DNA of 55,117 nt from an uncultured Clostridia bacterium (GTDB lineage Bacteria > Bacillota > Clostridia > TANB77 > CAG-508), in assembly GCA_947632185.1 (NCBI GenBank), contig CANROH010000002.1, positions 1-55,117 on the forward strand, in the 5' to 3' direction. This document shows, in pieces, positions 25,970-44,148 of the stretch. The translations under genes and the position numbers were made by a program. The stretch's first letter is position 1; each line of letters starts with the position of its first letter. The notes beneath the pieces were generated by a model. That model was not told the origin of the DNA. It saw only the letters and a program-made list of their open reading frames with translations, and searched no databases.

Positions 25970-26044
25970 TTTATTTCTCTCCTTAACAAATACCACTTCA
26001 AAATTATTTTATATCTTAAAATTAACCACATTTATCATAATTTA

Positions 26045-26561
26045 TTATATTACTGTAAAAGATATAACAAAGTCATTTAAAGCATTTTCTTGTATTACAA
26101 AATTCATCTCAACTCCTGAATCTTTACTTGCTAACGGATCATTTAAAGTAACCCATAATACATATACATCACCATTTCTTTCAATATTTGTATGCTCCAA
26201 TGATATCATTTTAGGGAATTTTGTTCCGTGCATATTCTTCAAAACTAGATAACGTTGGGAAGAAATTTTTCTTGAAATCACTATATAACATTTCATATGC
26301 ATCTTCATATTCATCATTTTCTATTGCCTTAATAAAAGTAGCTACATAATATTCCATTCTATCTCTTTCTTCCATTTCTGATAAGTCAGAAAGCTCTATA
26401 TTTTCTAATTTTTCTTGTATAGCAATTGAAACTTCTTCATCTGTCATTTTATCATAATCAATTGTAATTTCCTTTTTTCTAGTAGCAAAAGCTATTATCG
26501 CAAGAACAATAAGAATTGAAATTCCAATAATTAATAGATTATTTCTCTTTTTAACTTTCAT
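26045..26561 (-). pseudogene. Small membrane-anchored, possibly NTF2-like protein gene with a frameshift
   Basis: ORF 26211-26561 ends at ...SSFEEYARNKIP*. The next frame continues FPKMISLEHTNIERNGDVYVLWVTLNDPL...FVISFTVI. The frame break is at the T4 run (A4 on the coding strand) at 26219-26222. Confidence 0.6.
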
Positions 26562-26601: not shown

Positions 26602-29001
26602 CTAAGTAGACTTTTTATGCAATTTATTTATGTATTTATTAAACATCAAATCCTTTTCCTCTTCATCTTGAGTTAATGATGCAACATTGTTGATGGATTG
26701 TTCCATATCTGCAGCTCTTACCATTTGTTCATATTCACGTAAAAGTATTGCCATTTCATCATTTTGTCCGCCAATTTCCTCTTTTAAAACTTTATCTATA
26801 TTTATAGATCCAGCTCCTCTTTTAACATCTCCTTCGATTTTTCCAATAAGATTATTAGTCATATTATGTGCTTGTTTTTTATCTTTTGGAGTTAAATCAT
26901 AATCTTCATTTACATCATTTGTAGCTTTTTGTTTTGCCTTAATTTTACAAATAGCTTCAAATATTTGATTTGCTTTTCTATTTAATTCTCCCTTATCATG
27001 TGGAATTGCCATTGCTTTCTGTACACCTTCGATAGAATTACGTTCATTCATAAATTTTTGTTTTGCATTTTCTCTAATTTCATTATTTTCACTTGTTAAT
27101 TCTAAATCTTCTAATAGTCTTTGAGCTTTAGCTTCTTCTTCTGTAAAAGGATTATTATCATTTTTACGACTTAATATTTCACGTGCATTTGTTTCTGCTT
27201 CAGCCCTATTATTAGATTTTATGTTATTTGCCTCTAAATTTTGTTTTGCCTCTCTTACTCTTAAATCATAATCTCCCTCTGCGCCAGCATTAAAAGTTTG
27301 CGAACCATTATCTACAGCTGTACTAAAGGTAGAATCAAAATATTCTTCAGTAGCCCCCTCCAATTTATCTGCAATACCAATAGCAGCAATTGCATTTTGT
27401 CCTGCAGCAAGTGACATTGCAAATCCCATCAGTTTCATAGCACCAGGTATTGATCTTTTCATAAGTCTTAAAGCTTTTTTACCTGGGCCTTTTAGAAATT
27501 TTTTAGCAGCTCCACCAATTTTCTTTGCCCCACTTTTTGCCATACTAGAAATCTTTTTACCACCTGCGCTTGTCCATTTTTTACCAGTTTTATGTTTACC
27601 TTTTCCCATTCCATTGGTTGCCGCTTTTCCTGCTGCTTTTCCCGCTTTTCCTGCTGCCTTTCCTGCTGCTTTTCCAACCTTTCCTGCTGTTTTCCCCGCT
27701 GCTTTTCCTACTTTTGAACCCACTTTGCCAATGGTATTTTTTAACTTTGCTCCTGATTTTTTAAGAGCTGCTCCAGCTTTTCCACCTGTTAATTTATTTA
27801 CTTTAGTTGCAATTCCCTTTCCTACATTCTTTGCGCCATTTATTTTTGAAACTGCGGCAACTCCTAAAGCTGCGCCTGCAGCCAATGATGTTGAACTATT
27901 ATCATCTTGGAAATTAAATATTTTTCTTATTGCATCTTCTCCTTGATTAATAAATAAGAAACAAAGTATTGCTAAAAAACCATTTGCTAATTGATTAAAA
28001 TCATTATCAAATACTTCTATCAAACTTGTAAATGTACCCGTTCCACCTGATGTTAATATTTCCACAGCAGCATTAGCAAATGCTAAATACAATATACAGT
28101 GAAAAGGTTGTATTAATATTGTATATACAAATTCCTTTAGCCATGTATTTAATGCCTGTGCCTTACCATCTCCTATTTTATCTATTGAATATGTAATAGA
28201 AATTAAAGGAGATATTATTATAAGAAATCCTACTTTTAGCATACGTTTTAAATATGAAATTATAAATGATATCGTTTGGAATACAATTATCACATAAATA
28301 ACAGTAGCAACTATGCTTCCTATTCCCATTCCTAATGTTGCTTTTACTGCTATTTTTGTAAGTGCATCATTTAAGTCTTTCATTGCTGAAGCTCGTAAAA
28401 AATTAACTATAACTTTATTAATATTTATTACAAAAATTGCTATATATTGAAGTACAAATACTAATATTAAACTGCATACCCAATCAAATAACATTTGTTT
28501 ATATTTTGCTTTATCTTCTGCAATAGTAGAAAGAGCCATTCTTATTCCCACATATATTAAAATACATAGTAATATTGCTACTGATAATAATCTCAACACA
28601 TAAAACCATGTCGCAACAGATGTTCTTATAGTATTCAACAACCCCTCTTCAGGAGGTATATCAAAAAAATCTACATCAAGTAATTTATATTTACCAAAAA
28701 ATATATCAGCAGGAGTAGCTGAACCTTTACCTTTAAAATAATTATCTATACCGAAAGGATTCAACAAAGAACCAGTTATAATTGTATCAAATATCCAAGC
28801 TATTCCAACAGCCATTATTCGTTTAATCCATAAAGCAATTGATACGATACCACCTATCAAGTTTGTTATTGAATTTACAACTTCATATGTATCGATTTTA
28901 CCATCATCTTTAGCAGCATAACTAACAGTGCTTAAGCAAAACTCAAACAACATTATAATTATTATTAAAATTACTAATATTCTACTTGTAATTTTTCTCA
29001 C
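26602..29001 (-). CDS. VirB6/TrbL/TcpH-like polytopic membrane protein, paralog D, with a long basic/acidic C-terminal tail
   Basis: Signal-like N-terminus (..STVSYA/AKDD). Shared blocks IRMALSTIAEDKAKYKQMLFDWVCSLILVFVLQYI and SPLISITYSIDKIGDGKAQALNTWLKEFVYTILIQPFHCILYL align with paralogs A, B and C. Confidence 0.7.
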   Translation of the reverse strand: MRKITSRILVILIIIIMLFEFCLSTVSYAAKDDGKIDTYEVVNSITNLIGGIVSIALWIKRIMAVGIAWIFDTIITGSLLNPFGIDNYFKGKGSATPADIFFGKYKLLDVDFFDIPPEEGLLNTIRTSVATWFYVLRLLSVAILLCILIYVGIRMALSTIAEDKAKYKQMLFDWVCSLILVFVLQYIAIFVININKVIVNFLRASAMKDLNDALTKIAVKATLGMGIGSIVATVIYVIIVFQTISFIISYLKRMLKVGFLIIISPLISITYSIDKIGDGKAQALNTWLKEFVYTILIQPFHCILYLAFANAAVEILTSGGTGTFTSLIEVFDNDFNQLANGFLAILCFLFINQGEDAIRKIFNFQDDNSSTSLAAGAALGVAAVSKINGAKNVGKGIATKVNKLTGGKAGAALKKSGAKLKNTIGKVGSKVGKAAGKTAGKVGKAAGKAAGKAGKAAGKAATNGMGKGKHKTGKKWTSAGGKKISSMAKSGAKKIGGAAKKFLKGPGKKALRLMKRSIPGAMKLMGFAMSLAAGQNAIAAIGIADKLEGATEEYFDSTFSTAVDNGSQTFNAGAEGDYDLRVREAKQNLEANNIKSNNRAEAETNAREILSRKNDNNPFTEEEAKAQRLLEDLELTSENNEIRENAKQKFMNERNSIEGVQKAMAIPHDKGELNRKANQIFEAICKIKAKQKATNDVNEDYDLTPKDKKQAHNMTNNLIGKIEGDVKRGAGSINIDKVLKEEIGGQNDEMAILLREYEQMVRAADMEQSINNVASLTQDEEEKDLMFNKYINKLHKKST
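27618..27715 (-). repeat. Degenerate in-frame tandem repeat encoding (G/A)KAAGK-type basic low-complexity sequence
   Basis: The plus strand shows reiterated gcttttcctgct-like units. The protein reads GKVGSKVGKAAGKTAGKVGKAAGKAAGKAGKAAGKAAT. Confidence 0.8.
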
Positions 29002-29040
29002 TAATTTCTCCTCCGATAGGATATCTATTTCCGTCTATTA

Positions 29041-31698
29041 CTAAAAATCTTTTTTATGATCATTTAAAACTTCCTTACTTCCTATTAATCTTTCAATTTT
29101 TGTTTCAAGTGATTGGTGTTTTTCTGAATCCTCTTCACCATTGTTAATCAAATCAAGTTCTTGTTCAGAAAATTTCTTTATTTCTTTTTCTATTTCTTTT
29201 ATAGCTTTTCTAGTTTCTTCTTCTGTCAATTTTTCAATAATTTCAGGTGTCAATTCTTCTCCAGCTTCAGCTTTTCCTAGTGCCGTATTTACAACCTCAC
29301 TTACATTTGCCTTTGTTTCTTCCTTGCTCGTTTTTTCTTCCTTGCTCGTTTTTTCTTCCTTGATCTTTTTTTCTTCACTAATAGCATTAGAAGAGTCCAT
29401 ATCATCAACAGTACGTTCAAATTGTTTTAAAGTACTTGCTACAAATGCATCTGATGAAAGTCCATAGCTATTTGCATCTTTCATATTATTATAAATTGTA
29501 GCATCACGCTGAAGACTGCACATGTTTTTAATTGTATCTTCAATTTTTTTATTATTTGGATTATTTGGATCATCATTTTTAATGTTGTTTAAAATACCTG
29601 TACTATTAAGTTTTTCTAGAATTTGGTCATTTGTACTATTAGGATTTTTTAATATCTCACTTTGTACAACATTTTTTATTGATGATTTTAACGTTTTTTT
29701 ATCGCTTTCATCTAATCCTTGTAAAGCAGAATCTAATTGTTTAAATAAATCATCTAAATACTTTTCAGCATTCTCATAAACATCGCTATTTGCCATGATG
29801 TTATTCATATGTAATGCAGCTTCAGTTCCTGTTTTATCACCAGAAGCCAAACACATCTGTGCTGAACTGTTAGATAGATTTTTTGTAGTTGAGCCACTTT
29901 TCATAAATTCATTTAAAGCTTTACCTGCTGCTACACCTGACGCTCCTGATTCAAACTCTTTACCAGTTGCTCCATAGATAGTTGCACCAGTGGCTAATCC
30001 AACGCCAGCTGATACCATTCCTCTAATTGCTTCATTTTGAAAAATTTTTTGTTTAGCTTTACTAATTGTACCTGTAGCTTTTTTTACTGTTCGTTTCGCC
30101 TTACGATATGCTTTACGTGCTTTATCTGTACCCTTTGGATTGCTATTTATTCTTTGATCTCTTATTTTTTTAGCAATGTCTGCTCTCGCTTTAGCATGTG
30201 CTAACCTTGGATCCATTCCTTGATTTTCATAAGATGATGCTAACTCATTTACTGCATCATTATATTTTTTCTTTTCTTTTTTTCCATCAGGCCCGACAGT
30301 TTCTACTTCTTCTTTGTCAATATCTTTATTATATTTTGCCTTATATTTTTTTGCAACTTTCTTAGTTTTTTTATCCTCTTTTTTAGCCTTATCTTCTGCA
30401 ACCTTATCCTGTGCCAATTGCATAGCTTTTTCTTTGTCATTTCCTGTTATTCTATTTTTCGCATATAATGCTTTAGTTTTTATAGCATCTTTTTTACCTT
30501 TTAATCCGGAAGCCCTATTTTTTAAGCCATTTAAACCTTTTCTAGCTCCACTTCCTATATTTTTTGCTTTACTTAACGCCATTGCTGAAGCACCTAAACC
30601 AAAAGCTAAAGAAGTATCTGATGTAGCCTCTCCAAATTTAAAGATTTTTCCAAGTAATTTTTCACCATCTTTAGTAAATTTGATACATAGCATAGCAATT
30701 ATCACACCAGCTAATTGGCTTTCACTGTCGCCTTTTAATATTTCCAATGCCATATTAATAAATACTAAAAATATTATACAATGAAATGGTTGTATTAGCA
30801 CAGTGTATACAAACTCTTTTAACCATGTTTGTAAAGCTTGAGCTTTACCATCTCCCATTTTGTCTATTGAATATGTTAATGTGATTAAAGGAGAAATAAT
30901 TACTAAAAATGCCAATTTTAGCATACGATTAAAATATGTAAAAAATAATCCTAATGTTTGTCCTACAATCATACAATATACAATTGTAGCCCCAATTGCA
31001 TTAGCAGTCACGCCGAATGACATTCCAGCAATCTTGCCAATGGATTCAGATAACGCTTCTCCGGTTCCCATGCCTTTACCAATTTCATATAATGAATTTA
31101 CTATTACACTATTAACATTAAGTGTAAATATCATTATATATTGTAATACAAATATTATAGCCAAACTACAAACCCAATCAACAAGCATTTTTTTATAATT
31201 TGCCTTTTCAGAAGCAACTGTTGATATTGCCATTCTTATACCAACATATATAAATATACATAATAGTATAGCAGCAGCAAGATTTCTCATAACATAATAC
31301 CAACTTGCAATTGATGTCCTTATTGTATATATTACATCACCATGATTACTCCAATTAATATTAAAGAAATTAATATCTACTAATGCAACTTTATTAAATA
31401 ATATTTCAAATGGAGTTATTATATCAAATCCGCTTTTATTATACTGTCCTGTATCAGTAACTGATCCCTCGGAATATGCAATTACTGATGTAAGTGATTG
31501 TATTGCAAAACCAACAGCTATAGCAATTACTCTTATAGGCCAAGATAAAAGTCCAACAACTGTGCCTAACATATCTGAGATAAATCCTTCAACTTCTGAA
31601 AGACCATCATCTGCAAATGATATATTTCCTACTATAAAGTTATTTACTATAACAAAGATTAATATGCATATCAGTAATTTTTTTAATGTTTTTTTCAA
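29041..31698 (-). CDS. VirB6/TrbL/TcpH-like polytopic membrane protein, paralog C, with a long charged C-terminal tail
   Basis: Signal-like N-terminus (..GNISFA/DDG). Blocks IRMAISTVASEKANYKKMLVDWVCSLAIIFVLQYI and SPLITLTYSIDKMGDGKAQALQTWLKEFVYTVLIQPFHCIIFL. Confidence 0.7.
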   Translation of the reverse strand: MKKTLKKLLICILIFVIVNNFIVGNISFADDGLSEVEGFISDMLGTVVGLLSWPIRVIAIAVGFAIQSLTSVIAYSEGSVTDTGQYNKSGFDIITPFEILFNKVALVDINFFNINWSNHGDVIYTIRTSIASWYYVMRNLAAAILLCIFIYVGIRMAISTVASEKANYKKMLVDWVCSLAIIFVLQYIMIFTLNVNSVIVNSLYEIGKGMGTGEALSESIGKIAGMSFGVTANAIGATIVYCMIVGQTLGLFFTYFNRMLKLAFLVIISPLITLTYSIDKMGDGKAQALQTWLKEFVYTVLIQPFHCIIFLVFINMALEILKGDSESQLAGVIIAMLCIKFTKDGEKLLGKIFKFGEATSDTSLAFGLGASAMALSKAKNIGSGARKGLNGLKNRASGLKGKKDAIKTKALYAKNRITGNDKEKAMQLAQDKVAEDKAKKEDKKTKKVAKKYKAKYNKDIDKEEVETVGPDGKKEKKKYNDAVNELASSYENQGMDPRLAHAKARADIAKKIRDQRINSNPKGTDKARKAYRKAKRTVKKATGTISKAKQKIFQNEAIRGMVSAGVGLATGATIYGATGKEFESGASGVAAGKALNEFMKSGSTTKNLSNSSAQMCLASGDKTGTEAALHMNNIMANSDVYENAEKYLDDLFKQLDSALQGLDESDKKTLKSSIKNVVQSEILKNPNSTNDQILEKLNSTGILNNIKNDDPNNPNNKKIEDTIKNMCSLQRDATIYNNMKDANSYGLSSDAFVASTLKQFERTVDDMDSSNAISEEKKIKEEKTSKEEKTSKEETKANVSEVVNTALGKAEAGEELTPEIIEKLTEEETRKAIKEIEKEIKKFSEQELDLINNGEEDSEKHQSLETKIERLIGSKEVLNDHKKDF
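29317..29363 (-). repeat. 18-nt in-frame tandem duplication (about 2.5 copies) encoding EEKTSK repeats
   Basis: The plus strand reads ttcttccttgctcgtttt ttcttccttgctcgtttt ttcttccttga. The protein reads KEEKTSKEEKTSKEE. Confidence 0.85.
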
Positions 31699-31703
31699 CT
31701 ATT

Positions 31704-34700
31704 TCACCTTCTTCCATTTGATTGTTTTAAATACTCGTCTATATCGAAAACAGGTCCTTGTCGTGATATTAACTGTGATATTTTTTCTAATTGTTGCATT
31801 CTATTTTTAATTTCTAACCTTATTGTACTATCATCACTATCAATAAGCTGCTTTTGTAATTCAAGCATCTCTTCGCTTATTTGGCTATGTTCCTGTATCG
31901 CCTTTAAATAAGCCTTAGATGCACTTCTTTCTGGTGGATTATTTGCTATTTCTAAATTCTCATCTTTGTACTTTAACAATTTTTTTAGCATATCTCTAGC
32001 AATATCTGCTTCTGTTTCTGATAATGTAATACTAGATTCACCATCTTTTTTGCTTTCTAAAAGCCTTGTTATAACATCATTGCTATTTTTTGATTTTTTT
32101 GTCTCAGTTTGAGTATTTTCTTCAGTTTCTAATAAACCTAAACTAACCGCTTGCTTAATTTTTTCAAGTTTATCTTTTCTACTATATTTTTCAACAGCCT
32201 TTCTGACTGTCTCTTGAGACTCTGAATTAAGTTTATCAATAACATCATTAATATCTTTAGGTTTTTCTGAATTCTCTAAAGCAGGCTCTGCCTCGCCCTC
32301 TGGTGGTGTTACTTCACCTACAGATTTTTTCCTCTTTATTTTATCTAAATCTACTGCCTTTTTCTTGATCGCTTTTTTGAAACCAGATTTTCCGTTTCTA
32401 AACAATTCTTCCGGATTTTGATTTCTTTTTAAAATACCTTCTCTATAAAGAAAATTTCCTAACCTTCTTGATATTTCACTTTCGATTTTTGATGAATTGA
32501 AATTTATTGTACCATCTGTAGATTCTGTTATATCAATCATTATATCGTCTAATTTATCATTAATAAAGTTAATATCAACATTACTTATTTTTTGATGTTC
32601 TTCACCTGTAGTATTTTCAAGTACTATATCTTCATCTGTTAATTTGCTTGAATTATCACTTTCTTTAATATCATCAGATTCCTCTTGTTCTGATAATGGT
32701 ACAATACTTCCAGTTTTTGGGTCAATCTGTAAACCTAGAAAAGCTAATATCTGATTTTTTTGTTTTTGTTCAATTTCTGATTCTTCCAAATCTTTAACTA
32801 ATTCTTTTCTACTATCTAGCTCTATACGTTCTTCTACCCCATATATTTCTGCATTAGCAACACTTGATTCTTCTAATATTGTTTCTTCTCTAAATTCTTT
32901 TTCTTCTCTTCTTTGTCTTTGAATAGTATTTTCATCTATTTCACGTAATCTATCACCTACAACAGTTTTTGAAGCAATATATCTAACTGGAGCACTTCCT
33001 AAATCAGCTACTTTTAAAGCCCCTGAATATAATTTTGCTATCCAACGTGGATGTGTTTTTTGAAAAGCAGCTAATTTTATTCTTCTACGCTCCTTTCTAG
33101 CTTGTTCTATAGCAGAATCCCTAATATTATTCAAAGCTTGAATACCATATCGTGCAAATGTATATTTACCTTTATAAGTACGTGCACCATTTATTTTTCC
33201 AACAGAAGCATGTACATTAGATTTACCATTTGCTAATAATCCCATTCCTATAATAGGATGTGTTGCTATAGTACCCATTCCAACAAACATACTAACCATA
33301 CCAAGGCAAGTATTTTTAACCATTGACCATGATTTCTTAAATGATTCTCTATCTTCTTTAGAACCAAGTAAAAAGCTAAACTGATTATATGCAGCATCTT
33401 TTTGTTTTTCAAATCTCATTGTTCTATTATTCCAAACTGTTGAGCCAAAAGTTCCATTATAAATAGCTAGAATATTTTTCAACATTGATTTATTTTTACT
33501 TAATTTAAATACATTTGCATTAAGTGCTTTATTTAATTTTCCTAACATTATATCTTTATTGGTTGGAGATATAAAAGCTATATATGCATCTTGTGCTTCA
33601 TCATATTTTCTTTTATTTTCTATAGTACGATTAGCTTCATATTCTTTTTTTGCTTCATCTCTTTTTTCCTGTAATTTTTGTTCTACAAGTTGTGTTTCCT
33701 CTTCTTTTGCTTTTACATCTGCTTCAGCTTTAGCTCTTCTATCCTCATATTGTTCTACTGTCTCTGCATTAGAACCATCTTCTTTTAGCTTAAATTCTGA
33801 ACCTCCATATTTTTTATCCATTCTTTTTCTTACAGCTTTTTCAAATTTTTTACCAGCTTTTCGTTCATCTGTATCTTTATTTTTTATTTTAGATGTTATT
33901 GCATAAGCTGCTGCAAATGTAGCTTTTCCAGCAGCACCTAAAGCTTTACCTGGAGGACTTTTAATTAGTGCTTTAGCAGCTGCTTTTCCTCCTATTGCAA
34001 CACTAGCAGCTGTTTTTATATTTTCTTTTAATGCATCCTGTGCATTTTCTGTATCTCCTACTAAACTATTTTCTCCTCCAAAATGGAATATCTTTTTAAA
34101 CAATTTGTCCGCTTTAGAAACATAATTCATTAGTACTAAAGCTATTATCATACCTGCTATTGATTCCAAAGATAACATTAATGCTTGAGTAATAAATATT
34201 GCATATAATAAAGCATGTATTACTTGTATAAGCAAGTTCATTATATACTCTCTAACCCATGTTGCTAAAGCAGCACTTTTTCCAGTCAAAACTTTTTGCA
34301 ATGCATATGCAACACCAATTGCAGGAGCCATTAATGTTAATACTATTATAGTTAATAACCTCTTCAGATAAATAATTGTATATTTAATGGCCATGAATAC
34401 TAATGCTATATACATTACCATTCCAACCATTCCATTAGTTAATCTTGGGTCATATGCTCTAGTTCTAACTTCTTCATATATTTTTAATTCTGTTTCTGAA
34501 CTTGAAACTTTTTTATCCTTCAAACTTGATGAACTTATTGTATTAGATGTATTGCTAATTAAATCAACAAGAACATTCGTAATACGTATTGCAGCAATCA
34601 TAAAATAATGTATTGTAAAAACTATTATTATTCCTACAAGCCAATCTGTAAGCATTCTCTTATAAGTAGCTTTATCAGAGGCAATAGTTGAAATTGCCAT

Positions 34701-35453
34701 TTTTATTCCAATTGCTATCAAAGCAATTAACATAGCAGCAATCGTCAATAATCTTATTAAATAATACCATGTAGCAATTGCTTTTCTTATGATTATAATT
34801 ATTGGTTCTTCTGAAGCTAATTGTTGAACATATTTTAAACATTCATCACATCCATTGCATCCGCAACTACATATTTCGTTTCCAGATAAATTATTTATAT
34901 CAATTGTTTTAGCAGTAGCTTCATTTAATGTAACGCATTCTGATGAAGGCTCACCGCATTTTTTACATACTATTTTTGCACCAGTTCCTGAAAATGATTT
35001 ATCTAAAGATAAAGTAAATATATCTACATTTAAAGCTGGTACTCTATTATATACAATTGCTTCAACAGTTAGATTGTTTGAAGAATCATTTATATTTGAT
35101 AAATCATTTGAATTATCTATAATAGATCCATCTACTTTAACCTCTGATGTTGCTTCTAAAGACCATGTTAATAATTTTTCTATTAACGCAGTCCAACCAA
35201 CAAATACCATTCTATATGATAATGTCATAATTCCTAATAACCAATCTGCAATTGCGCCTATGGTTTTTAGTAGCCATTCAAAAATTCCTTCTTTAGGAAC
35301 ATATGTACCTTTTGTTGTTCCTGAATAATAAAACTCGCCTTCTTTTAAATCAAGCTTTGCATAAGAAAAAGGAGTAGAAAAAAATGTTATTAGTATTGAA
35401 AAAATTATTATTAACATTATTACTTTTTTTATTATATTACTTAATAATTTCAT
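31704..35453 (-). CDS. VirB6/TrbL/TcpH-like polytopic membrane protein, paralog B (1,249 aa), with a Cys-rich loop insertion and a very long coiled-coil/charged tail
   Basis: Signal-like N-terminus (..TPFSYA/KLD). Blocks IKMAISTIASDKATYKRMLTDWLVGIIIVFTIHYF and LMAPAIGVAYALQKVLTGKSAALATWVREYIMNLLIQVIHALLYA. It is the most divergent of the four. Confidence 0.65.
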   Translation of the reverse strand: MKLLSNIIKKVIMLIIIFSILITFFSTPFSYAKLDLKEGEFYYSGTTKGTYVPKEGIFEWLLKTIGAIADWLLGIMTLSYRMVFVGWTALIEKLLTWSLEATSEVKVDGSIIDNSNDLSNINDSSNNLTVEAIVYNRVPALNVDIFTLSLDKSFSGTGAKIVCKKCGEPSSECVTLNEATAKTIDINNLSGNEICSCGCNGCDECLKYVQQLASEEPIIIIIRKAIATWYYLIRLLTIAAMLIALIAIGIKMAISTIASDKATYKRMLTDWLVGIIIVFTIHYFMIAAIRITNVLVDLISNTSNTISSSSLKDKKVSSSETELKIYEEVRTRAYDPRLTNGMVGMVMYIALVFMAIKYTIIYLKRLLTIIVLTLMAPAIGVAYALQKVLTGKSAALATWVREYIMNLLIQVIHALLYAIFITQALMLSLESIAGMIIALVLMNYVSKADKLFKKIFHFGGENSLVGDTENAQDALKENIKTAASVAIGGKAAAKALIKSPPGKALGAAGKATFAAAYAITSKIKNKDTDERKAGKKFEKAVRKRMDKKYGGSEFKLKEDGSNAETVEQYEDRRAKAEADVKAKEEETQLVEQKLQEKRDEAKKEYEANRTIENKRKYDEAQDAYIAFISPTNKDIMLGKLNKALNANVFKLSKNKSMLKNILAIYNGTFGSTVWNNRTMRFEKQKDAAYNQFSFLLGSKEDRESFKKSWSMVKNTCLGMVSMFVGMGTIATHPIIGMGLLANGKSNVHASVGKINGARTYKGKYTFARYGIQALNNIRDSAIEQARKERRRIKLAAFQKTHPRWIAKLYSGALKVADLGSAPVRYIASKTVVGDRLREIDENTIQRQRREEKEFREETILEESSVANAEIYGVEERIELDSRKELVKDLEESEIEQKQKNQILAFLGLQIDPKTGSIVPLSEQEESDDIKESDNSSKLTDEDIVLENTTGEEHQKISNVDINFINDKLDDIMIDITESTDGTINFNSSKIESEISRRLGNFLYREGILKRNQNPEELFRNGKSGFKKAIKKKAVDLDKIKRKKSVGEVTPPEGEAEPALENSEKPKDINDVIDKLNSESQETVRKAVEKYSRKDKLEKIKQAVSLGLLETEENTQTETKKSKNSNDVITRLLESKKDGESSITLSETEADIARDMLKKLLKYKDENLEIANNPPERSASKAYLKAIQEHSQISEEMLELQKQLIDSDDSTIRLEIKNRMQQLEKISQLISRQGPVFDIDEYLKQSNGRR

Positions 35454-35467
35454 TTTTCCTCTCCTTA

Positions 35468-37006
35468 CTAAAAATTAATCTGCATTTCTGTTTCATCATA
35501 TTTTAATAATCCATCTTCAATTCCTTTTAAATCGTATTCTTCTGAACCAGAAATTATTCTTTTAACCTTTCCGTCATTTAAACTATAAAGATATATTCCT
35601 TTCCCAGCTTTTGAATATAAAAATCTATCATTTGATAACCACAAATATGAAGTTATAGCATCATTTAATTCTCTATTTGGTTCTTCATTAAATTTAGAAA
35701 TAAATTTCATCGAATATATAGCTCCATTACTATCTGTTTCTGGATATATATCATAATCTAAACTTTCCCCAATTATTTTTATATCATCTTGACTTAAAGT
35801 TTCTTTATATTCTTTACATTTTTCTAAAAGATTTTCTTCACCTTTAACTCTTCTTTTTTCAGTTTCATAAATTAAATCTATTTGAAGTCTTGCAACAAAA
35901 TTTGTATTATCTAAATATTTACTAATCTTTGTCAAATTACTCTTAACATTATTATACAACATAATTCCATTTAAGTCATCATAATTTAGCCTGATTTCTA
36001 TACCTTTAATTGGATATGAAATAAAAACATAAGTAGCATCATACTCATAATCACTATAATCTGGCCACATATATGTAAGCTTATTCATAAACTCAAGTAA
36101 ATCTAATTCTTCATTTAAAAATTTATCTGCTAAATCAAAAAAATCATCTGCTGATTCTTTACTATTTCTATATATCGAAATTTCATTTGGTGTAAAAAAT
36201 ACATATATATCTTCTCCCTTATATCCTATAACATTTGTATCCGTTTCTTTAAATGTTGCCTCTCCTAATGTTAACTCTATATAATCGAAGTCAACTCCAG
36301 GAAATATTCCATTTACAACGTTTTCGTCATATTTTTTATCAAACACTATATTATATATTTTTTCACCAATTGTTCTTACCTTTATTCCTTCATCAAAATA
36401 TATATAATACTCATCAAAAATGCTATCTCTTTCGCCAATATATGTGTCTGAATTCCAATTATTATCTATACAAGCTTGTAATGTTTTTGATTGAATATCA
36501 AAAGTAGTAATTGGTATTTCTTTATACTTTTCTAAACTTAATTGTGAATCCATATATATAAAATAATCTTCTATATCATTAATTATTATAGAATTTATTT
36601 TTGAATTATCACATTTAACTTGAACCGTAATATCATTTTCTTCGTCAAACATTCTAAAACTTCTATAATTTAATATTTTAGCTGAATCTTCCAATAATTT
36701 ATTATAATATTCTTCGTTGCTTTCATTATTTTCATATGGAAGTACTTTAAATTTTAAAAATACATCTAAATAAAAATTTGAATCAGTTGATTCCTCTTCC
36801 GAAATATAAATAGATTTATAATATTCTATTACTTCTTTTATAGTACTTAAATTATCATAAGAAATTTCTGTGGTTGTTTCTTTAGAGGTTAAATATTTTA
36901 ATACCGTTGATAATATTACTAATATAACTAGCATAATAGATAAAAGTATTAAAATTTTTAAACTACTTTTATTATTTTCATTATTTTTGTATTTTGGTTT
37001 TTCCAT
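35468..37006 (-). CDS. Hypothetical membrane-anchored extracytoplasmic protein F, paralog of 37033-38211
   Basis: One N-terminal TM segment. The C-terminal blocks ISIYRNSKESADDFFDL...YMWPDYSDYEYDATYVFISYPIKGIEIRLNYDDLNGIMLYNN align with E. Start MEKPKY follows GGGGAG. Confidence 0.55.
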   Translation of the reverse strand: MEKPKYKNNENNKSSLKILILLSIMLVILVILSTVLKYLTSKETTTEISYDNLSTIKEVIEYYKSIYISEEESTDSNFYLDVFLKFKVLPYENNESNEEYYNKLLEDSAKILNYRSFRMFDEENDITVQVKCDNSKINSIIINDIEDYFIYMDSQLSLEKYKEIPITTFDIQSKTLQACIDNNWNSDTYIGERDSIFDEYYIYFDEGIKVRTIGEKIYNIVFDKKYDENVVNGIFPGVDFDYIELTLGEATFKETDTNVIGYKGEDIYVFFTPNEISIYRNSKESADDFFDLADKFLNEELDLLEFMNKLTYMWPDYSDYEYDATYVFISYPIKGIEIRLNYDDLNGIMLYNNVKSNLTKISKYLDNTNFVARLQIDLIYETEKRRVKGEENLLEKCKEYKETLSQDDIKIIGESLDYDIYPETDSNGAIYSMKFISKFNEEPNRELNDAITSYLWLSNDRFLYSKAGKGIYLYSLNDGKVKRIISGSEEYDLKGIEDGLLKYDETEMQINF

Positions 37007-37032
37007 ATAAACTCCCCACATAAATTTAGCAA

Positions 37033-38211
37033 TTACTTTACTATTTTTTCCCTTCTATCCATTTCGATTTTGTGTACCAAATCTACATTATTATTAAAAC
37101 TTACTATCCCGTTTTTTACTAATGACTTTGAATAATCAGTAAAATAATAATTTTGATAAAATGTTATTCCTTTAAAATCATTTTCTTTTATATTTATTTC
37201 AACTCCTCTAGTTGAATATAATACATGTAATGTAGCTTTTCCTTCATCATATTCAAACAAATCGTATGCTTGCCATCTATTTTTTAATCTTTTTGAAAAA
37301 ATATCTAAATCTCCTGTCTCAATATATTCTTCTAGTATATCCTCAAAAGTAGAATTATTTTTATATGAATATGTATATATAGAAATCTCATCATCATAGA
37401 AAAAATAATAGTATGAATCGTTTCTATATCCCAAATATCCTTCTTTAACACTTCCAAAATTATATGTTGGTTCTATTTCAGCTATTTGTTTTAAATCCAT
37501 ATCAGTATTTATTGTACTTGTTATATCTCCATCATATTTATCTGTAAAAATGATATTTTTTACAGCGCCAGTAGGTACAGTTCTTATTCTTATTGAATCA
37601 TCAAGATATGAAACATATCCATCTTTTAAATCAATTCCCTCTCCTAAATCTTCTTCTATTGATGAAAAAAAATCATCGTAAATATTTAATTTTCTTAAAT
37701 ATTTATTATTTTCATATAAATTTGTATATTTAGCAATTTGAGTATTTTCAACATTTATATAATTATTTCCATCTGTTTTTTCAAAAAAATTTTCTATATC
37801 ATTTATAATTATGTTATATTTATTATTTATATCATCATATACCACATTAATATTAATATTTTTATCTTCATCAATTAATATAAAGTTTTCTCTTTCAAAA
37901 AATTTTGTTAATTCATCTATCAAATTTTTAAAAAATTCTTCATTACTAGTTCCATTTTCATTGTATAAATCTTTACTAAATGTTAAATAAATTGTATTAT
38001 TTTCTTCTTTTATATATGTACATTCATACTTTTCAATTATTTCCTGAACAATTGGTGATTGTGGTTGTGAAGTAATTGAAACTATATTACTTGATTCTTG
38101 GCTACCATTTACAATTGCAAAAATCAATAAAGTTACTAATATACATAATAAGCAAAATAACAAAATTAAAAAAATAAAAATAAACTTTATTTTAATTTTA
38201 TCTTTTCCCAT
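37033..38211 (-). CDS. Hypothetical membrane-anchored extracytoplasmic protein E, paralog of 35468-37006
   Basis: One N-terminal TM segment. Blocks ISIYTYSYKNNSTFEDI...NRWQAYDLFEYDEGKATLHVLYSTRGVEINIKENDFKGITFYQN. The start abuts the stop of the upstream gene. Confidence 0.55.
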   Translation of the reverse strand: MGKDKIKIKFIFIFLILLFCLLCILVTLLIFAIVNGSQESSNIVSITSQPQSPIVQEIIEKYECTYIKEENNTIYLTFSKDLYNENGTSNEEFFKNLIDELTKFFERENFILIDEDKNININVVYDDINNKYNIIINDIENFFEKTDGNNYINVENTQIAKYTNLYENNKYLRKLNIYDDFFSSIEEDLGEGIDLKDGYVSYLDDSIRIRTVPTGAVKNIIFTDKYDGDITSTINTDMDLKQIAEIEPTYNFGSVKEGYLGYRNDSYYYFFYDDEISIYTYSYKNNSTFEDILEEYIETGDLDIFSKRLKNRWQAYDLFEYDEGKATLHVLYSTRGVEINIKENDFKGITFYQNYYFTDYSKSLVKNGIVSFNNNVDLVHKIEMDRREKIVK

Positions 38212-39432
38212 CTATTTTCCCTTCTTCATAAAACCATCAACACCTTTTAAAGTTGTTATATTCATATTAAACACAACTTTTACCATTTTTTCTACTGTTC
38301 CCATAGATAAAAGTAGAGCTACAGCAACAAGTGGTGCTCTTATTGCAATAGTATTAGCAGTAAGAACAAACACTAAATATATTAGTGCATGAAGCGGTTG
38401 TATAAAAACATTAATCAAAAATTCCTGCATCCAATTTGAAAATGCTTGGGCTTTTCCATCTCCTATTTTATCTATAGGATATGTTATTGTAATTAAAGGC
38501 GAAACTATTATTAGCAAGCCTACCATTAAAAACCTTTTAGCATACAAGAATAAGAATTTTGCTTCCATAAATAATAAACACCAATAAACCATTGACCACA
38601 TAGTTAATTTTAATCCAAAAAAACTTAATGTATTTTTTAACAATTGTAAACGAACTGTATCTTCAAAAACATTTCCATCTCCAACAAGAGAATTACGAAT
38701 TGTGTAAAAAACAGATGTAAGTACATTTCCAACCCCTATTAATGCAGTCATTATGTAAGGCATTAAGAATATTAACAGTATACTTTCTAGCCAACTTAAA
38801 AACATCTTTTTATATTTTGCTTGGTCAGAAGCAACCGTAGATAATGCCATTCTTATACCAATATAGATTAAAACCATTAAAGATATTACTATAGCGAGTA
38901 TCCTACAAATATAGTAAACAGGTCGTATGCTTTCTTTAATTTTATTATTACTTTCATTACTTGTAATAACAGTTTTATCTCCTATATCATACTCAACACC
39001 TGTATCAAAATAATTAATATTAAATAAACTTACTCTATTAAAAACTATTCTATCTATTGTAAGCCAAAACGGACTTTTTTCATTTCCATCAATTTTTTCT
39101 CCAGTTATAGTAATAGAGCTAATAATAACATCAAATAATAGTGCAAGTATATTTACAATTCTTGCTAAGATTCCTGTAACAAATCCAACTGCAGAAACTC
39201 CTATACTATTGAACTCTAATGATTTTTTATTTGATGAATCTTGCTCAGTAGAAACAATTCCATTTTGAATAATATCTTCGGGCGCAGTGTTACTTATTTT
39301 TGCTTCATCTTTCGTATAAACCTGTTCCTGCTTACTTTTTGCTTTATCTTCATCAGCATACACAAAATTATTACAAAATATGAAATTAAAAAGTATTGTT
39401 ATCACTAATAACAATGTTATAACTTTTTTCAT
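38212..39432 (-). CDS. VirB6/TrbL-like polytopic membrane protein, paralog A (short form, no tail)
   Basis: Signal-like N-terminus (..NNFVYA/DEDK). Blocks IRMALSTVASDQAKYKKMFLSWLESILLIFLMPYI and SPLITITYPIDKIGDGKAQAFSNWMQEFLINVFIQPLHALIYL. Confidence 0.7.
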   Translation of the reverse strand: MKKVITLLLVITILFNFIFCNNFVYADEDKAKSKQEQVYTKDEAKISNTAPEDIIQNGIVSTEQDSSNKKSLEFNSIGVSAVGFVTGILARIVNILALLFDVIISSITITGEKIDGNEKSPFWLTIDRIVFNRVSLFNINYFDTGVEYDIGDKTVITSNESNNKIKESIRPVYYICRILAIVISLMVLIYIGIRMALSTVASDQAKYKKMFLSWLESILLIFLMPYIMTALIGVGNVLTSVFYTIRNSLVGDGNVFEDTVRLQLLKNTLSFFGLKLTMWSMVYWCLLFMEAKFLFLYAKRFLMVGLLIIVSPLITITYPIDKIGDGKAQAFSNWMQEFLINVFIQPLHALIYLVFVLTANTIAIRAPLVAVALLLSMGTVEKMVKVVFNMNITTLKGVDGFMKKGK

Positions 39433-43108: not shown

Positions 43109-43513
43109 TTAGAAGTTTTTAGCAACACTAATGACTATTTTCCAAATAGAATAAGCACCAAAAATTACTATACCTGAAACTAAAACTCCTACTAGTTGAG
43201 TTTTTAACTTAGCCTGTGCTTCTGGTCCAGCAGTTAAATATTTTATTCCCATATATGTTGTTATAGCAACCATTACACCAGTTCCAATCAAGGTTAATAT
43301 AGATCCTAAATCAGCAAATTCTTCAACAATCTTTTCTGTTTGTATCTTACCAGTACTTTTTTCACCTTCTTCTATAAATCCACTTGCTTGCTTTTCCATT
43401 TCACTTAAAGAAATAGCTTCTACGTTATTTATAAAATTATTTGTAAAAGCCAATGCAATCAATACTGCAATTATGATTAATATCTTATTTACAAAACTTA
43501 TTTTTTTATTCAC
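43109..43513 (-). CDS. VirB2/TrbC-like pilin paralog 7 (divergent), first gene of the machinery operon
   Basis: Signal peptide (..NNVEA/ISL), a variable region, and a TM hairpin LTLIGTGVMVAITTYMGIKYLTAGPEAQAKLKTQLVGVLVSGIVIFGAY. GTG start after GGAGG. Confidence 0.55.
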   Translation of the reverse strand: MNKKISFVNKILIIIAVLIALAFTNNFINNVEAISLSEMEKQASGFIEEGEKSTGKIQTEKIVEEFADLGSILTLIGTGVMVAITTYMGIKYLTAGPEAQAKLKTQLVGVLVSGIVIFGAYSIWKIVISVAKNF

Positions 43514-43560
43514 TTATAATACCTCCGTCCATTTTGCCTAATTATACTATTATATTAATA

Positions 43561-43589: not shown

Positions 43590-43670
43590 CAATTTTATTC
43601 AATATTTGATAATTTTAACATAAATGTAATATAAGTTGTTTAACTCCAAATTTTTATGAAATTTTAATTT

Positions 43671-44135: not shown

Positions 44136-44148
44136 AATATTTTCCTTT

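What the first reader, a model, noticed from the sequence alone, without database searches (positions are those of the whole stretch)
26602..39432. Four VirB6/TcpH-like paralogs in one operon, three with long charged C-terminal extensions
ORFs of 406, 1,249, 885 and 799 aa share three features:
- a cleavable-looking signal ending in [YF]A
- a block F[NG][KR]VxLxxxN[FY]F
- two strongly conserved membrane blocks, IRMA[LI]ST[VI]A[SE][DE][KQ]AxYKxM...W and SPLI[TS][IL]TY[SP]IDK[IM]GDGKAQAxxxWxxEFxxxxxIQPxH

The 1,249-aa copy is the most divergent. The short copy (A) ends right after the membrane core. B, C and D each add 400-800 aa of K/E/A-rich, coiled-coil or low-complexity sequence, and B has extra TM segments.

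VirB6 family proteins are the inner-membrane channel and substrate-contact subunit. The clostridial TcpH is already a VirB6 domain with a large C-terminal extension. Tandem oversized VirB6 copies are otherwise a hallmark of the Rickettsiales rvh system. Four in a row in a Gram-positive is unusual. It suggests a hetero-oligomeric channel, or that the tails themselves are exposed or secreted modules.
Basis: partly seen in the sequence, partly recalled or inferred. Interest (0 to 1): 0.7.

Follow-up and report, generated by a model that had tools for sequence, protein, structure and literature searches.

The report
VirB6-like paralogs with built-in pilin hairpins
Four related membrane proteins, each carrying an embedded copy of a pilus-subunit fold, most likely form the membrane base of a chromosomal secretion and pilus machine that is conserved across an uncultured order of gut Clostridia. 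This resembles the gene expansions seen in Rickettsia and the pilin arrays seen in Patescibacteria.

Summary
The four paralogs are real: 30-44% identity over about 250-400 aa, BLASTP E 1e-34 to 1e-88. They are not adjacent, because two unrelated paralogous genes lie between A and B.

They sit directly downstream of a split VirB4 ATPase and seven tandem VirB2-like pilin genes. The surrounding genes are housekeeping (tadA-dnaX-recR), and the window holds no relaxase or coupling protein. The locus is syntenic in about 90 species-level MAGs of the gut order TANB77, with 1 to 5 copies per locus.

hhalign against the lineage's own pilins gives probability 94%, E 9e-8, and 80 of 109 family members hit PF18895.

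No member hits Pfam TrbL/VirB6, and hhalign against the PrgH family is null. VirB6-type function therefore rests on four weaker lines:
- position next to VirB4
- predicted N-out, five-TM, C-in topology
- the solved VirB6 (TrwI) as the weak top Foldseek hit
- family-wide sub-cut-off matches to the Mycoplasma ICE CDS16 and pLS20 "extended VirB6" models

The tails evolve fast. They start basic, so probably cytoplasmic, and become acidic distally.

Verdict: a new, large, unmodelled VirB6-like family, a new variant of a known kind. Interest is moderately high.

The parts
38212..39432 (-). Paralog A (406 aa), the short form. It has a signal-like N-terminus, an extracytoplasmic N-domain, a pilin-like hairpin and three further membrane helices, with no tail. 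It is the first gene after VirB4.
   Evidence: AF2 pLDDT 74.7. Foldseek top hit is TrwI/VirB6. Orthologs in 79 GTDB loci.
38698..38946 (-). VirB2-like pilin helix-loop-helix inside A (residues 163-245).
   Evidence: PF18895 E 9e-4. The lineage pilin HMM gives domain E 3.6e-7. hhalign of the family against the pilins gives probability 94.4%, E 8.8e-8. Alignment shown.
38338..38553 (-). Block 2 of A (residues 294-365): KR turn, TM, the SPLITITY.IDK.GDGKAQA loop, then the TM carrying IQP.HA. No known family matches it.
37033..38211 (-). X392, a bitopic protein (N-terminal TM plus a soluble part) and a paralog of Y517. It is present only in the Scatovivens-like clade.
35468..37021 (-). Y517, a bitopic multi-domain alpha/beta protein of unknown fold family. 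It is conserved in most loci that carry a B-type gene.
   Evidence: AF2 pLDDT 88.9. No convincing PDB fold match. No Pfam or PDB sequence match.
31704..35453 (-). Paralog B (1249 aa), the most divergent core, with a 779-aa tail.
   Evidence: B-type genes form their own clade.
34830..34976 (-). Cys-rich insert in B (residues 160-208, CxxC...C...CxCxCxxCxxC), between the FNRV-type motif and the pilin hairpin.
   Evidence: Read from the sequence.
34554..34796 (-). Pilin-like hairpin of B.
   Evidence: Lineage pilin HMM domain E 1.6e-4. Alignment.
31707..34043 (-). Tail of B: a basic proximal part, a Gly-rich hydrophobic island (33204-33320), then an acidic, helix-prone distal part.
29041..31698 (-). 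Paralog C (885 aa).
31084..31326 (-). Pilin-like hairpin of C.
   Evidence: PF18895 E 0.005. Lineage pilin HMM E 4.4e-4.
29044..30618 (-). Tail of C. It contains an 18-nt x 3.4 in-frame repeat (29316-29376, KEEKTS) and a Gly-rich island (29899-30036).
26602..29001 (-). Paralog D (799 aa), a recent duplicate of C.
   Evidence: 44% identity to C. Same subclade as C. D orthologs in L083-L090.
28390..28632 (-). Pilin-like hairpin of D.
   Evidence: PF18895 E 0.015. Alignment.
26605..27921 (-). Tail of D. It contains a 12-nt x 8 repeat (27619-27715, GKAA-type) and a Gly/Ala-rich island (27352-27489).
39470..41458 (-). VirB4-like ATPase, C-terminal part (662 aa).
   Evidence: NF045971 (CD1110 family) E 4e-62, NF045975 (Mbov_0397) E 4e-58, PF19044.
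41477..42742 (-). TrsD-like protein (421 aa): an N-terminal TM plus a region resembling the VirB4 N-domain.
   Evidence: NF041427 E 0.005. Weakly aligned to VirB4_plasma profile positions 96-280. Conserved in all loci.
43109..46458 (-). Seven tandem VirB2-like pilin genes (126-158 aa), each with a signal-like N-terminus.
   Evidence: PF18895 and/or PF04956 at or above the curated cut-off for all seven. Relatives carry arrays of 3-8.
23186..24538 (-). G5 plus glucosaminidase cell-wall hydrolase, a candidate VirB1 equivalent.
   Evidence: PF07501 and PF01832. Syntenic in relatives.
24998..26561 (-). s116 (frameshifted here) and p332, two conserved bitopic proteins of unknown family that close the cluster.

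Best explanation
A, B, C and D are paralogous VirB6-type subunits, the polytopic membrane base or translocon, of a chromosomally fixed T4SS that makes pili and derives from the MPF_FATA class. The host is an uncultured gut Clostridium of the order TANB77.

Architecture of each protein:
- a Sec-type signal
- an acidic extracytoplasmic N-domain carrying the FNRV..L..IN.F beta motif
- a VirB2-type pilin helix-loop-helix whose basic loop faces the cytoplasm
- three more membrane helices around the conserved KR...SPLIT.TY.IDK.GDGKAQA...IQP.H block
- in B, C and D, a fast-evolving C-terminal tail that begins in the cytoplasm

Inferred mechanism:
- By analogy with the pilus-on-VirB6-pentamer arrangement (proposed from the R388 structure and modelled for PrgH/PrgF of pCF10), the proteins oligomerise above the TrsD/VirB4 ATPase.
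- Their built-in pilin hairpins form the first ring onto which the seven free VirB2-like pilins dock and polymerise.
- The old A, B and C/D clades imply specialised, non-redundant subunits. They could form one hetero-oligomer or alternative bases for different pilins.
- The basic proximal tails would engage the ATPase, nucleic acid or anionic lipid on the cytoplasmic side.

Status of the steps:
- Shown: paralogy, pilin-like hairpin, gene context, conservation.
- Inferred: oligomeric state, pilin docking, tail role, and the substrate of the machine.
For: - Paralogy.
- T4SS context: seven pilins, TrsD, VirB4, A-D and a hydrolase.
- A-D are the only polytopic proteins in the cluster.
- Foldseek of the AF2 model of A: TrwI/VirB6 chains take ranks 1, 3, 5, 6 and 8.
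- Family-level charge pattern: L1 -3.7, pilin loop +2.4, L3 -2.3, KR turn +1.8, proximal tail +9.6. This gives N-out, 5 TM, C-in.
- Pilin hairpin: 80 of 109 members hit PF18895, best E 4e-8. hhalign against the lineage's pilins gives probability 94.4%, E 8.8e-8. Column-by-column motif match.
- 95 of 109 and 83 of 109 members hit the Mycoplasma ICE models NF045848 and NF045889. The second model's name places it beside the ICE VirB4 family Mbov_0397, so I infer it is CDS16, which review PMC12857230 calls 'likely the VirB6-like component'. Thirteen members hit NF045890, the model for pLS20 gene 49, the 'putative extended-VirB6' of PMC8557374.
- Homology between the N-terminus of VirB6/CedA and VirB2/CedA1 has already been reported (PMC9905601).
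- Synteny in about 90 species-level loci, with three old clades and residues W130, R216 and Q261 invariant across all clades.
Against: - No Pfam TrbL/VirB6 hit for any of the 109 members or for the family consensus.
- hhalign against the PrgH/PF04610 family gives probability 0.2%. The same tool gives 94% against the pilins, so it had power here.
- The family HMM does not find TrwI, PrgH, TcpH or pLS20 gene 49 among the ORFs of those plasmids.
- The Foldseek match is weak (E 0.06, TM below 0.4).
- All NCBIfam hits are below the curated cut-offs.
- Topology comes from hydropathy and charge only. AF2 draws residues 274-325 as one helix, which conflicts with two TM spans there.
- Nothing is known about expression or oligomeric state.
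Confidence: 0.6

Rival explanations
1. A-D are not VirB6 homologues. They are pilin-derived proteins: a VirB2 module fused to an extra membrane anchor. They would act as membrane-retained initiators, terminators or anchors of the pilus, like the minor pilins of other pilus systems, while the true VirB6 role is absent or filled by something else.
For: - The only statistically solid sequence signal is to pilins.
- Every direct test against TrbL/VirB6, PrgH, TcpH and TrwI is negative.
- Nine members also hit the 'pilin-like' Mbov_0395 model.
Against: - No other polytopic candidate for VirB6 exists in the cluster.
- The best structural match over about 270 columns is VirB6.
- Known VirB6 and CedA proteins also have a pilin-like N-terminus (PMC9905601), so the pilin signal does not exclude VirB6.
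- In practice the predicted job, a base for pilin polymerisation, largely overlaps with that of VirB6.
Confidence: 0.2
2. The long tails are surface-exposed or released modules, such as adhesins or effectors, carried by a channel subunit.
For: - Each tail has a conserved Gly-rich, moderately hydrophobic island that could cross the membrane and place the acidic distal part outside.
- The tails evolve fast and carry in-frame repeats, as surface proteins under diversifying pressure often do.
Against: - The first ~150 tail residues average +9.6 net charge, which by the positive-inside rule places them in the cytoplasm.
- The islands do not reach a standard TM hydropathy threshold.
- No known adhesin or enzyme domain is present.
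- From my own knowledge, the C-terminal domain of TcpH is reported to be cytoplasmic.
Confidence: 0.15
3. Only one copy works and the others are redundant duplicates in decay.
For: - B's block 2 is degenerate.
- Copy number varies from 1 to 5 between genomes.
- Some neighbouring genes in the window are frameshifted (s116, GH94, CapA).
Against: - All four ORFs are intact.
- The A, B and C/D types are separate old clades kept in dozens of species, with core identity of 0.5-0.9 among the closest (probably genus-level) orthologs and shared invariant residues.
- The B-type is retained at 1100-2200 aa in most loci.
Confidence: 0.03
4. The conserved core belongs to a membrane transporter family unrelated to T4SS that merely sits next to T4SS genes.
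For: Block 2 has no family assignment.
Against: - The only family hits are T4SS or conjugation models.
- Linkage to VirB4 is strict in all loci examined.
Confidence: 0.02

Closest known systems
Extended VirB6 proteins of Gram-positive conjugation systems (TcpH of pCW3, ConG of ICEBs1, Orf15 of Tn916, pLS20 gene 49)
   Same: - An N-terminal polytopic domain followed by a large hydrophilic, partly unstructured C-terminal extension, 700-1000 aa in total.
- Encoded beside VirB4 and a cell-wall hydrolase.
- Thirteen family members hit the pLS20 gene-49 model, and the pLS20 N-terminal hairpin aligns with the pilin-like hairpin.
   Different: - No detectable similarity to TcpH.
- Those systems have one copy and sit on plasmids or ICEs with a relaxase and coupling protein. 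Here there are 1-5 copies in a chromosomal locus with neither in the window.
- A short tail-less form (A) coexists with the long forms.
Rickettsiales rvh T4SS: tandem, oversized VirB6 paralogs (for example the four VirB6 paralogs of Ehrlichia; Bao et al. 2009, cited in PMC12857230)
   Same: - Several tandem VirB6-like genes with large extensions.
- The VirB2 family is also multiplied.
- A chromosomal system in a reduced-genome, host-associated bacterium.
   Different: - Rickettsiales are diderm with an MPF_T system, and their VirB6 cores are recognisable TrbL/VirB6 domains.
- Here the host is a monoderm, the system is MPF_FATA-like, the core is not recognised by TrbL models, and it carries an unusually clear pilin hairpin.
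Patescibacteria chromosomal T4SS (Southlakia epibionticum; PMC10633639, PMC12102498)
   Same: - TrsD plus VirB4, arrays of 2-11 divergent VirB2-like pilins (PF18895/PF04956), and a VirB6.
- No relaxase or coupling protein near the locus.
- Chromosomal and origin-proximal context, in a reduced-genome organism.
   Different: - A different phylum (Bacillota, TANB77).
- Patescibacterial VirB6 proteins were mostly found with the standard MPF_T VirB6 profile, which this family does not match.
- The papers read do not report multiplied VirB6 there.
- Essentiality is known there and unknown here.
Archaeal Ced/Ted DNA-import systems: CedA/TedA (VirB6-like) and CedA1/TedC (VirB2-like) (PMC9905601)
   Same: - The N-terminal region of the VirB6-like protein is homologous to the whole pilin.
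- A domesticated, relaxase-less, chromosomal T4SS derivative with VirB2-, VirB4- and VirB6-like parts. A ComEA-like gene lies next to the pilin array in this window.
   Different: - No sequence similarity was tested or seen between CedA and A-D.
- Ced has a single CedA.
- A DNA-import function here is only a possibility.
Mycoplasma ICE membrane protein CDS16 (NCBIfam Mbov_0396, NF045889) and the MMCAP2_0566 family (NF045848)
   Same: - The closest sequence relatives among named families: 83 and 95 of 109 members match, best E 7e-11 and 7e-13, and the match to A covers both hairpin and block 2 (residues 167-362).
- The neighbouring ATPase also resembles the ICE VirB4 family Mbov_0397.
   Different: - The window proteins score far below the curated cut-offs (16-24 bits against 70 and 90; best family E-values 7e-11 and 7e-13).
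- The ICE proteins are about 300 aa and belong to a mobile element that has a VirD4.
Canonical VirB6 (TrwI of R388, PrgH of pCF10; Pfam PF04610)
   Same: - Position in the cluster and polytopic helical architecture.
- Best PDB fold match.
- Presumed role as the base for VirB2 polymerisation (bioRxiv 10.64898/2025.12.18.695078).
   Different: No sequence or profile similarity. PrgH against these pilins is also not significant.

Membership tests
TrbL/VirB6 (Pfam PF04610 and relatives) | Significant match to a TrbL/VirB6 profile | tested here: not met
   No hit for A-D, for 109 family members or for consensus sequences at E<=10. hhalign against the PrgH family, whose members carry PF04610, gives probability 0.2%.
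TrbL/VirB6 (Pfam PF04610 and relatives) | Polytopic membrane protein with about 5 hydrophobic helices, N-terminus outside and C-terminus inside | tested here: met
   By prediction only. Hydropathy, AF2 helices and family-level positive-inside counts fit N-out, 5 TM, C-in. No dedicated topology predictor was available.
TrbL/VirB6 (Pfam PF04610 and relatives) | Encoded within a T4SS cluster next to VirB4 | tested here: met
   A starts 37 nt after VirB4. The linkage holds in every locus that contains VirB4.
TrbL/VirB6 (Pfam PF04610 and relatives) | Fold like the solved VirB6 (TrwI, PDB 7o3v/8rt9) | tested here: inconclusive
   TrwI chains are the best PDB hits but weak: E 0.06-0.76, probability 0.44-0.89, TM 0.27-0.39.
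TrbL/VirB6 (Pfam PF04610 and relatives) | Pentameric assembly that carries VirB5 or VirB2 | not testable with these tools
   Only monomer prediction was available.
Extended-VirB6 subfamily (TcpH, ConG, Orf15, pLS20 gene 49, RvhB6) | VirB6-type core plus a large hydrophilic C-terminal domain | tested here: met
   B, C and D have tails of 779, 525 and 439 aa with no further strong TM. A lacks a tail.
Extended-VirB6 subfamily (TcpH, ConG, Orf15, pLS20 gene 49, RvhB6) | Sequence relationship to a named member | tested here: inconclusive
   TcpH: none. pLS20 gene-49 model NF045890: 13 of 109 members, best E 1.5e-5. hhalign to pLS20 gene 49: E 0.01, hairpin only. The reverse HMM search is negative.
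Mycoplasma ICE CDS16-type (NF045889) and MMCAP2_0566 (NF045848) | Score above the NCBIfam cut-off (70 and 90 bits) | tested here: not met
   A scores 16-24 bits. Homology is still supported by 83 and 95 of 109 members matching, best E 7e-11 and 7e-13.
VirB2 / T4SS_pilin (PF18895, PF04956) | Two hydrophobic helices joined by a short charged loop, preceded by a signal peptide | tested here: met
   Met for the hairpin module only. 80 of 109 members hit PF18895. hhalign against the lineage pilins gives probability 94.4%. Alignment.
VirB2 / T4SS_pilin (PF18895, PF04956) | Small protein (about 100-160 aa) consisting of the hairpin alone and able to leave the membrane into a pilus | tested here: not met
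   A-D are 406-1249 aa, with about 100-200 aa before the hairpin and at least three membrane helices after it. They are therefore not filed as pilins.

The most novel reading that the evidence does not exclude
The TANB77 locus is a domesticated, vertically inherited pilus-T4SS of the kind so far thought special to Patescibacteria. These uncultured, reduced-genome gut Clostridia would use it for contact-dependent uptake or exchange of DNA or nutrients with neighbouring bacteria.

The A-D family would be a living intermediate between VirB2 and VirB6, a VirB6-type base that still carries a near-intact pilin. Its paralogs would assemble a hetero-pentameric or switchable base that selects among seven antigenically different pilins, with the rapidly evolving tails acting as substrate- or partner-specific adaptors.
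Probability: 0.2. Interest if true: 0.85.

Novelty: new variant of a known kind. Interest (0 to 1): 0.63.

Why it matters
1. Evolution of VirB2 and VirB6. This family gives by far the clearest sequence link between VirB2 pilins and the N-terminus of a VirB6-type base protein: hhalign probability 94% here, against non-significant for PrgH. The idea was raised only tentatively for CedA and for VirB6 of Agrobacterium. It bears on how conjugative pili arose and how pilins dock on the base.

2. Repeated expansion in reduced genomes. Joint expansion of VirB2 and VirB6, long a puzzle in Rickettsiales, has apparently arisen separately in a monoderm lineage. This suggests a general solution for host- or partner-associated bacteria with reduced genomes.

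3. Distribution of the Patescibacteria-type T4SS. A chromosomal system with a pilin array and no relaxase in the window now appears in Bacillota. That is relevant to where the Patescibacteria system came from.

4. Medical interest. TANB77 is uncultured, abundant in the human gut and linked to immunotherapy response (PMC11680825). Its envelope machines are the obvious candidates for how it interacts with other cells.

5. Annotation gap. The family has 4,255 cluster representatives and no model of its own, so it is currently annotated as 'hypothetical' everywhere.

Tried and rejected
- No DNA or protein match for the region or for A in PLSDB plasmids or INPHARED phages. It is not a known plasmid or phage.
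- Profile searches of the A-type and all-type alignments against PDB sequences gave nothing useful.
- hhalign of the family against single TrwI and TcpH sequences and against a 32-member PrgH alignment was not significant.
- I tried to widen the PrgH alignment from GTDB genomes and got only 5 loci, so the VirB6 reference profile stayed shallow.
- The family HMM against all ORFs of R388, pCW3, pCF10 and pLS20 gave no hit to their VirB6 proteins.
- Consensus sequences against Pfam at E<=10 gave only T4SS_pilin.
- Y517 and X392 were tested as possible VirB8-like parts. The AF2 model is confident, but Foldseek gives only weak beta-propeller-like noise, and there are no Pfam or PDB sequence hits. 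Their role is unknown.
- s116 and p332 profiles against PDB gave nothing.
- The promoter and terminator scan matched shuffled expectation for promoters, so it is uninformative.
- The 'conserved TANB77 pilin' paper turned out to describe a Tad (type IVc) pilus cluster, not this locus.
- The exact-sequence contig look-up for A failed.
- I rejected the idea that this is an ICE or plasmid-borne conjugation system. The flanks are housekeeping genes and are the same in relatives.

Full report
**1. What is in the sequence**

The window is about 25% G+C, and almost every gene is on the minus strand.
- A: 38212-39432, 406 aa
- B: 31704-35453, 1249 aa
- C: 29041-31698, 885 aa
- D: 26602-29001, 799 aa

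They share a core of roughly 250-400 residues at 30-44% identity, with BLASTP E-values from 3e-34 to 5e-88. The signal-like N-termini, the FNRV..L..IN.F motif and both membrane blocks can be read directly in the translations.

Three details need correction:
- The genes are not contiguous. X392 (37033-38211) and Y517 (35468-37021) lie between A and B. They are paralogs of each other and unrelated to A-D.
- Block 2 is degenerate in B.
- B's tail has no segment that passes a standard hydropathy threshold.

Intergenic gaps are 0-40 nt, which fits one operon. The promoter and terminator scan adds nothing.

**2. Gene context**

In minus-strand order the neighbourhood reads:
- a ComEA-like gene and a DUF1385 gene
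- seven tandem VirB2-like pilin genes (PF18895 and/or PF04956 at or above the curated cut-off for all seven)
- a TrsD-like protein
- a VirB4-like ATPase (CD1110 family E 4e-62; Mycoplasma ICE VirB4 family E 4e-58)
- A, X392, Y517, B, C, D
- two small bitopic proteins
- a G5-glucosaminidase cell-wall hydrolase

Everything else in the window is housekeeping: tadA, dnaX, ybaB, recR, cofD/yvcK, holB, signal peptidase, a two-component system, PBP5, LytR, FtsW-like and a GH94 glucan synthase. The window contains no relaxase, coupling protein or integrase. The region has no match in plasmid or phage collections.

**3. Distribution**

- A has 766 detectable homologues. All are unnamed, and some lie on contigs up to 514 kb.
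- A scan of one genome per GTDB species returned 79 loci, and a second scan returned 11 more. All are gut MAGs labelled Clostridia, Candidatus Scatovivens, Candidatus Merdicola or Clostridium sp. CAG:571.
- Scatovivens and Merdicola belong to family CAG-508 of the order TANB77 (PMC13106387). TANB77 is an uncultured, low-GC, reduced-genome gut clade (PMC11680825).
- Synteny is strict: pilin array (3-8 genes), TrsD, VirB4, A, (X), Y, B, C, (D), s116, p332, hydrolase. In close relatives the same tadA-dnaX flank follows.
- This is therefore a vertically inherited chromosomal locus, not an ICE.
- The number of VirB6-like genes ranges from one to five. The single-copy loci carry an 860-913-aa tailed form right after VirB4 (L091-L093), and L087 carries five.
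- A neighbour-joining tree of 109 non-redundant cores gives three old clades that follow gene position: A-type, B-type and C/D-type. The window's C and D fall in one subclade, so that duplication is recent.
- Residues W130, R216 and Q261 (core numbering) are invariant across all clades. Every clade is retained with intact ORFs, which argues against decay.
- A profile search of 1.84 billion cluster representatives finds 4,255 members at E<=1e-3 and 2,754 at E<=1e-30. Most of the listed hits are 700-1000 aa. The family has no Pfam model.

**4. What the core is**

*Negative tests*
- No Pfam TrbL/VirB6 hit for A-D, for 109 members scanned one by one, or for family consensus sequences.
- No PDB sequence hit.
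- hhalign against TrwI, against TcpH and against a PrgH alignment whose members carry PF04610 is not significant. The PrgH comparison gives probability 0.2%.
- The family HMM does not find the VirB6 proteins of R388, pCW3, pCF10 or pLS20.

*Positive tests*
1. Eighty of 109 members hit PF18895 (T4SS_pilin), best E 4e-8. The few other recurrent hits are also pilin families: TrbC/VirB2, DUF4134 and DUF2976.
2. In an alignment with the seven pilins of the window, LIYIGIRMALSTVASDQAKYKKM...W lines up with LAIKYISAAPGDKADIKKHA...Y.
3. An HMM built from 314 pilins of this lineage finds the hairpins of A, B and C, with domain E-values of 3.6e-7, 1.6e-4 and 4.4e-4.
4. hhalign of the family against a 69-pilin alignment gives probability 94.4%, E 8.8e-8 over 79 columns. 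Block 1 is therefore a VirB2-type helix-loop-helix.
5. Ninety-five and 83 of 109 members match the Mycoplasma ICE models NF045848 and NF045889 (best E 7e-13 and 7e-11). For A, the NF045889 match covers residues 167-362, spanning both hairpin and block 2. The model name Mbov_0396 places it beside the ICE VirB4 family Mbov_0397, so I infer that it is CDS16, which the 2025 nomenclature review calls 'likely the VirB6-like component' (PMC12857230).
6. Thirteen members match NF045890. In pLS20 this model annotates the 974-aa protein directly after VirD4, which is gene 49, the 'putative extended-VirB6'. Its N-terminal hairpin aligns with ours at hhalign E 0.01.
7. The AF2 model of A (pLDDT 74.7) has TrwI/VirB6 chains at ranks 1, 3, 5, 6 and 8 of the PDB Foldseek list. 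The scores are weak: E 0.06-0.76, TM 0.27-0.39.
8. Beltran et al. reported that the N-terminus of CedA is homologous to the whole CedA1 pilin, and more weakly that VirB6 of Agrobacterium resembles VirB2 (PMC9905601). A pilin-like start is therefore compatible with a VirB6-type protein.
9. A-D are the only polytopic proteins in the cluster.

I conclude that they do the VirB6 job. I do not file them as members of the TrbL/VirB6 family, because the defining profile match was tested and not met.

**5. Topology and tails**

Charge counts across the 109 cores:

| Segment | Mean net charge |
|---|---|
| FNRV region | -3.7 |
| Pilin loop | +2.4 |
| Next loop | -2.3 |
| KR turn | +1.8 |
| First 150 tail residues | +9.6 |
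| Last 200 tail residues | -3.3 |

- Combined with hydropathy and the AF2 helices, this fits N-terminus outside, five spans and C-terminus inside. From my own knowledge, that is the topology established experimentally for Agrobacterium VirB6.
- The fit is not perfect. AF2 draws residues 274-325 as one helix.
- Among the closest (probably genus-level) orthologs the cores keep 0.5-0.9 identity, but the tails keep only 0.1-0.3.
- A local rise in conservation marks a Gly-rich, moderately hydrophobic island: B 712-750, C 555-600, D 505-550.
- The tails carry short in-frame DNA repeats: 12 nt x 8 in D and 18 nt x 3.4 in C.
- No known domain is present in the tails.
- B has a Cys-rich insert before the hairpin.
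- Whether the acidic distal parts are inside or outside depends on whether the island spans the membrane. I could not settle this.

**6. The intervening genes**

- Y517 folds confidently (pLDDT 88.9) into a membrane-anchored multi-domain alpha/beta protein.
- It has no convincing PDB neighbour and no Pfam or PDB sequence match.
- X392 is its paralog and occurs only in the Scatovivens-like clade.
- Their role is unknown. They are not recognisably VirB8-like.

**7. Mechanism**

*Shown*
- A T4SS-type cluster with VirB2-like, VirB4-like and hydrolase parts.
- A-D as its polytopic paralogs.
- A pilin hairpin in each of them.

*Inferred*
- By analogy with the pilus-on-VirB6-pentamer model (proposed from the R388 structure and modelled for PrgH/PrgF of pCF10; bioRxiv 10.64898/2025.12.18.695078), A-D oligomerise above TrsD/VirB4.
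- Their built-in hairpins provide the template ring for polymerisation of the free pilins.
- The three old clades imply distinct roles, either a hetero-oligomer or alternative bases.
- The basic proximal tails act on the cytoplasmic side.

The substrate of the machine is open. The absence of a relaxase and coupling protein in the window and the nearby ComEA-like gene allow a Ced/ComB-like DNA-uptake role or a Patescibacteria-like contact role. Against the ComEA lead, that adjacency is not conserved in the closest relatives, and the rest of the genome was not available.

**8. Comparison and novelty**

- Tandem oversized VirB6 genes together with multiplied VirB2 genes recall Rickettsiales.
- TrsD plus VirB4, a pilin array, no relaxase nearby and a chromosomal position recall the Patescibacteria T4SS (PMC12102498, PMC10633639).
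- The pilin-like N-terminus recalls CedA.
- A December 2025 review still treats Patescibacteria as the only monoderms whose T4SS has VirB2.
- A preprint from the same month reports VirB2-like proteins on most Gram-positive conjugative plasmids. Pilins in a Firmicute are therefore no longer unique by themselves.
- I found no paper describing this locus. The TANB77 'pilin' paper concerns a Tad pilus cluster.

My rating is a new variant of a known kind: a large, unmodelled VirB6-like family with an overt pilin module, multiplied within a domesticated T4SS of gut Clostridia.

Noticed in passing
window 43109-46458 (-): Seven tandem, divergent VirB2-like pilin genes (126-158 aa, PF18895/PF04956), each with a signal-like N-terminus. 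Relatives carry arrays of 3-8. So far such arrays have been highlighted mainly in Patescibacteria.
   Followed up: partly
window 39470-42742 (-): VirB4 is in two genes: a TrsD-like protein (N-terminal TM plus a region resembling the VirB4 N-domain, 421 aa) followed by a 662-aa ATPase. pGO1-type and Patescibacteria systems have the same arrangement.
   Followed up: partly
window 46707-48248 (-): A ComEA-like DNA receptor gene (SLBB + HHH_3) and a DUF1385 membrane protein lie directly upstream of the pilin array. The adjacency recurs in some distant loci (L030, L037, L045, L055) but not in the closest relatives, so its meaning is unclear.
   Followed up: partly
window 35468-38211 (-): Y517 gives a confident AF2 model (pLDDT 88.9) but has no PDB fold neighbour and no Pfam family. 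It may be a new bitopic T4SS accessory protein family. X392 is its lineage-specific paralog.
   Followed up: partly
window 26045-26561 (-): s116 (116 aa) is truncated compared with its 170-200-aa orthologs. The missing C-terminal part lies in the overlapping ORF 26045-26317, so there is a frameshift here, either a pseudogene or an assembly error.
   Followed up: partly
window 5447-13460 (-): A GH94 cyclic-beta-1,2-glucan-synthase-like gene is split into two overlapping ORFs (1310 and 1364 aa). The PF10091 domain is divided between them, which suggests a frameshift near 9530.
   Followed up: no
window 14494-15715 (+): A CapA/PGA_cap gene is split into two ORFs (217 and 163 aa) that cover profile positions 2-133 and 190-255. 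It is probably disrupted.
   Followed up: no
window 34830-34976 (-): Paralog B carries a Cys-rich insert (CxxC...C...CxCxCxxCxxC) in its predicted extracytoplasmic N-domain. It could bind metal or form a disulfide knot.
   Followed up: no
L091-L093 and L087 (related loci): Some TANB77 genomes have a single tailed VirB6-like gene (860-913 aa) right after VirB4, and one has five copies. The tailed form may be ancestral and the short A-type derived.
   Followed up: partly
L099:4285-7209 (pLS20): The N-terminal hairpin of the pLS20 'putative extended VirB6' (GWKI..IVQKKTDYDKI) aligns with the pilin-like hairpin of this family. A pilin-like start may be common in Gram-positive extended VirB6 proteins.
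   Followed up: partly
window 16064-21173 (-): The T4SS locus abuts tadA, dnaX, ybaB and recR. From my own knowledge this cluster is origin-proximal in Bacillus subtilis, and the genes run with the uniform GC skew. This echoes the origin-proximal T4SS position noted for some Patescibacteria.
   Followed up: no
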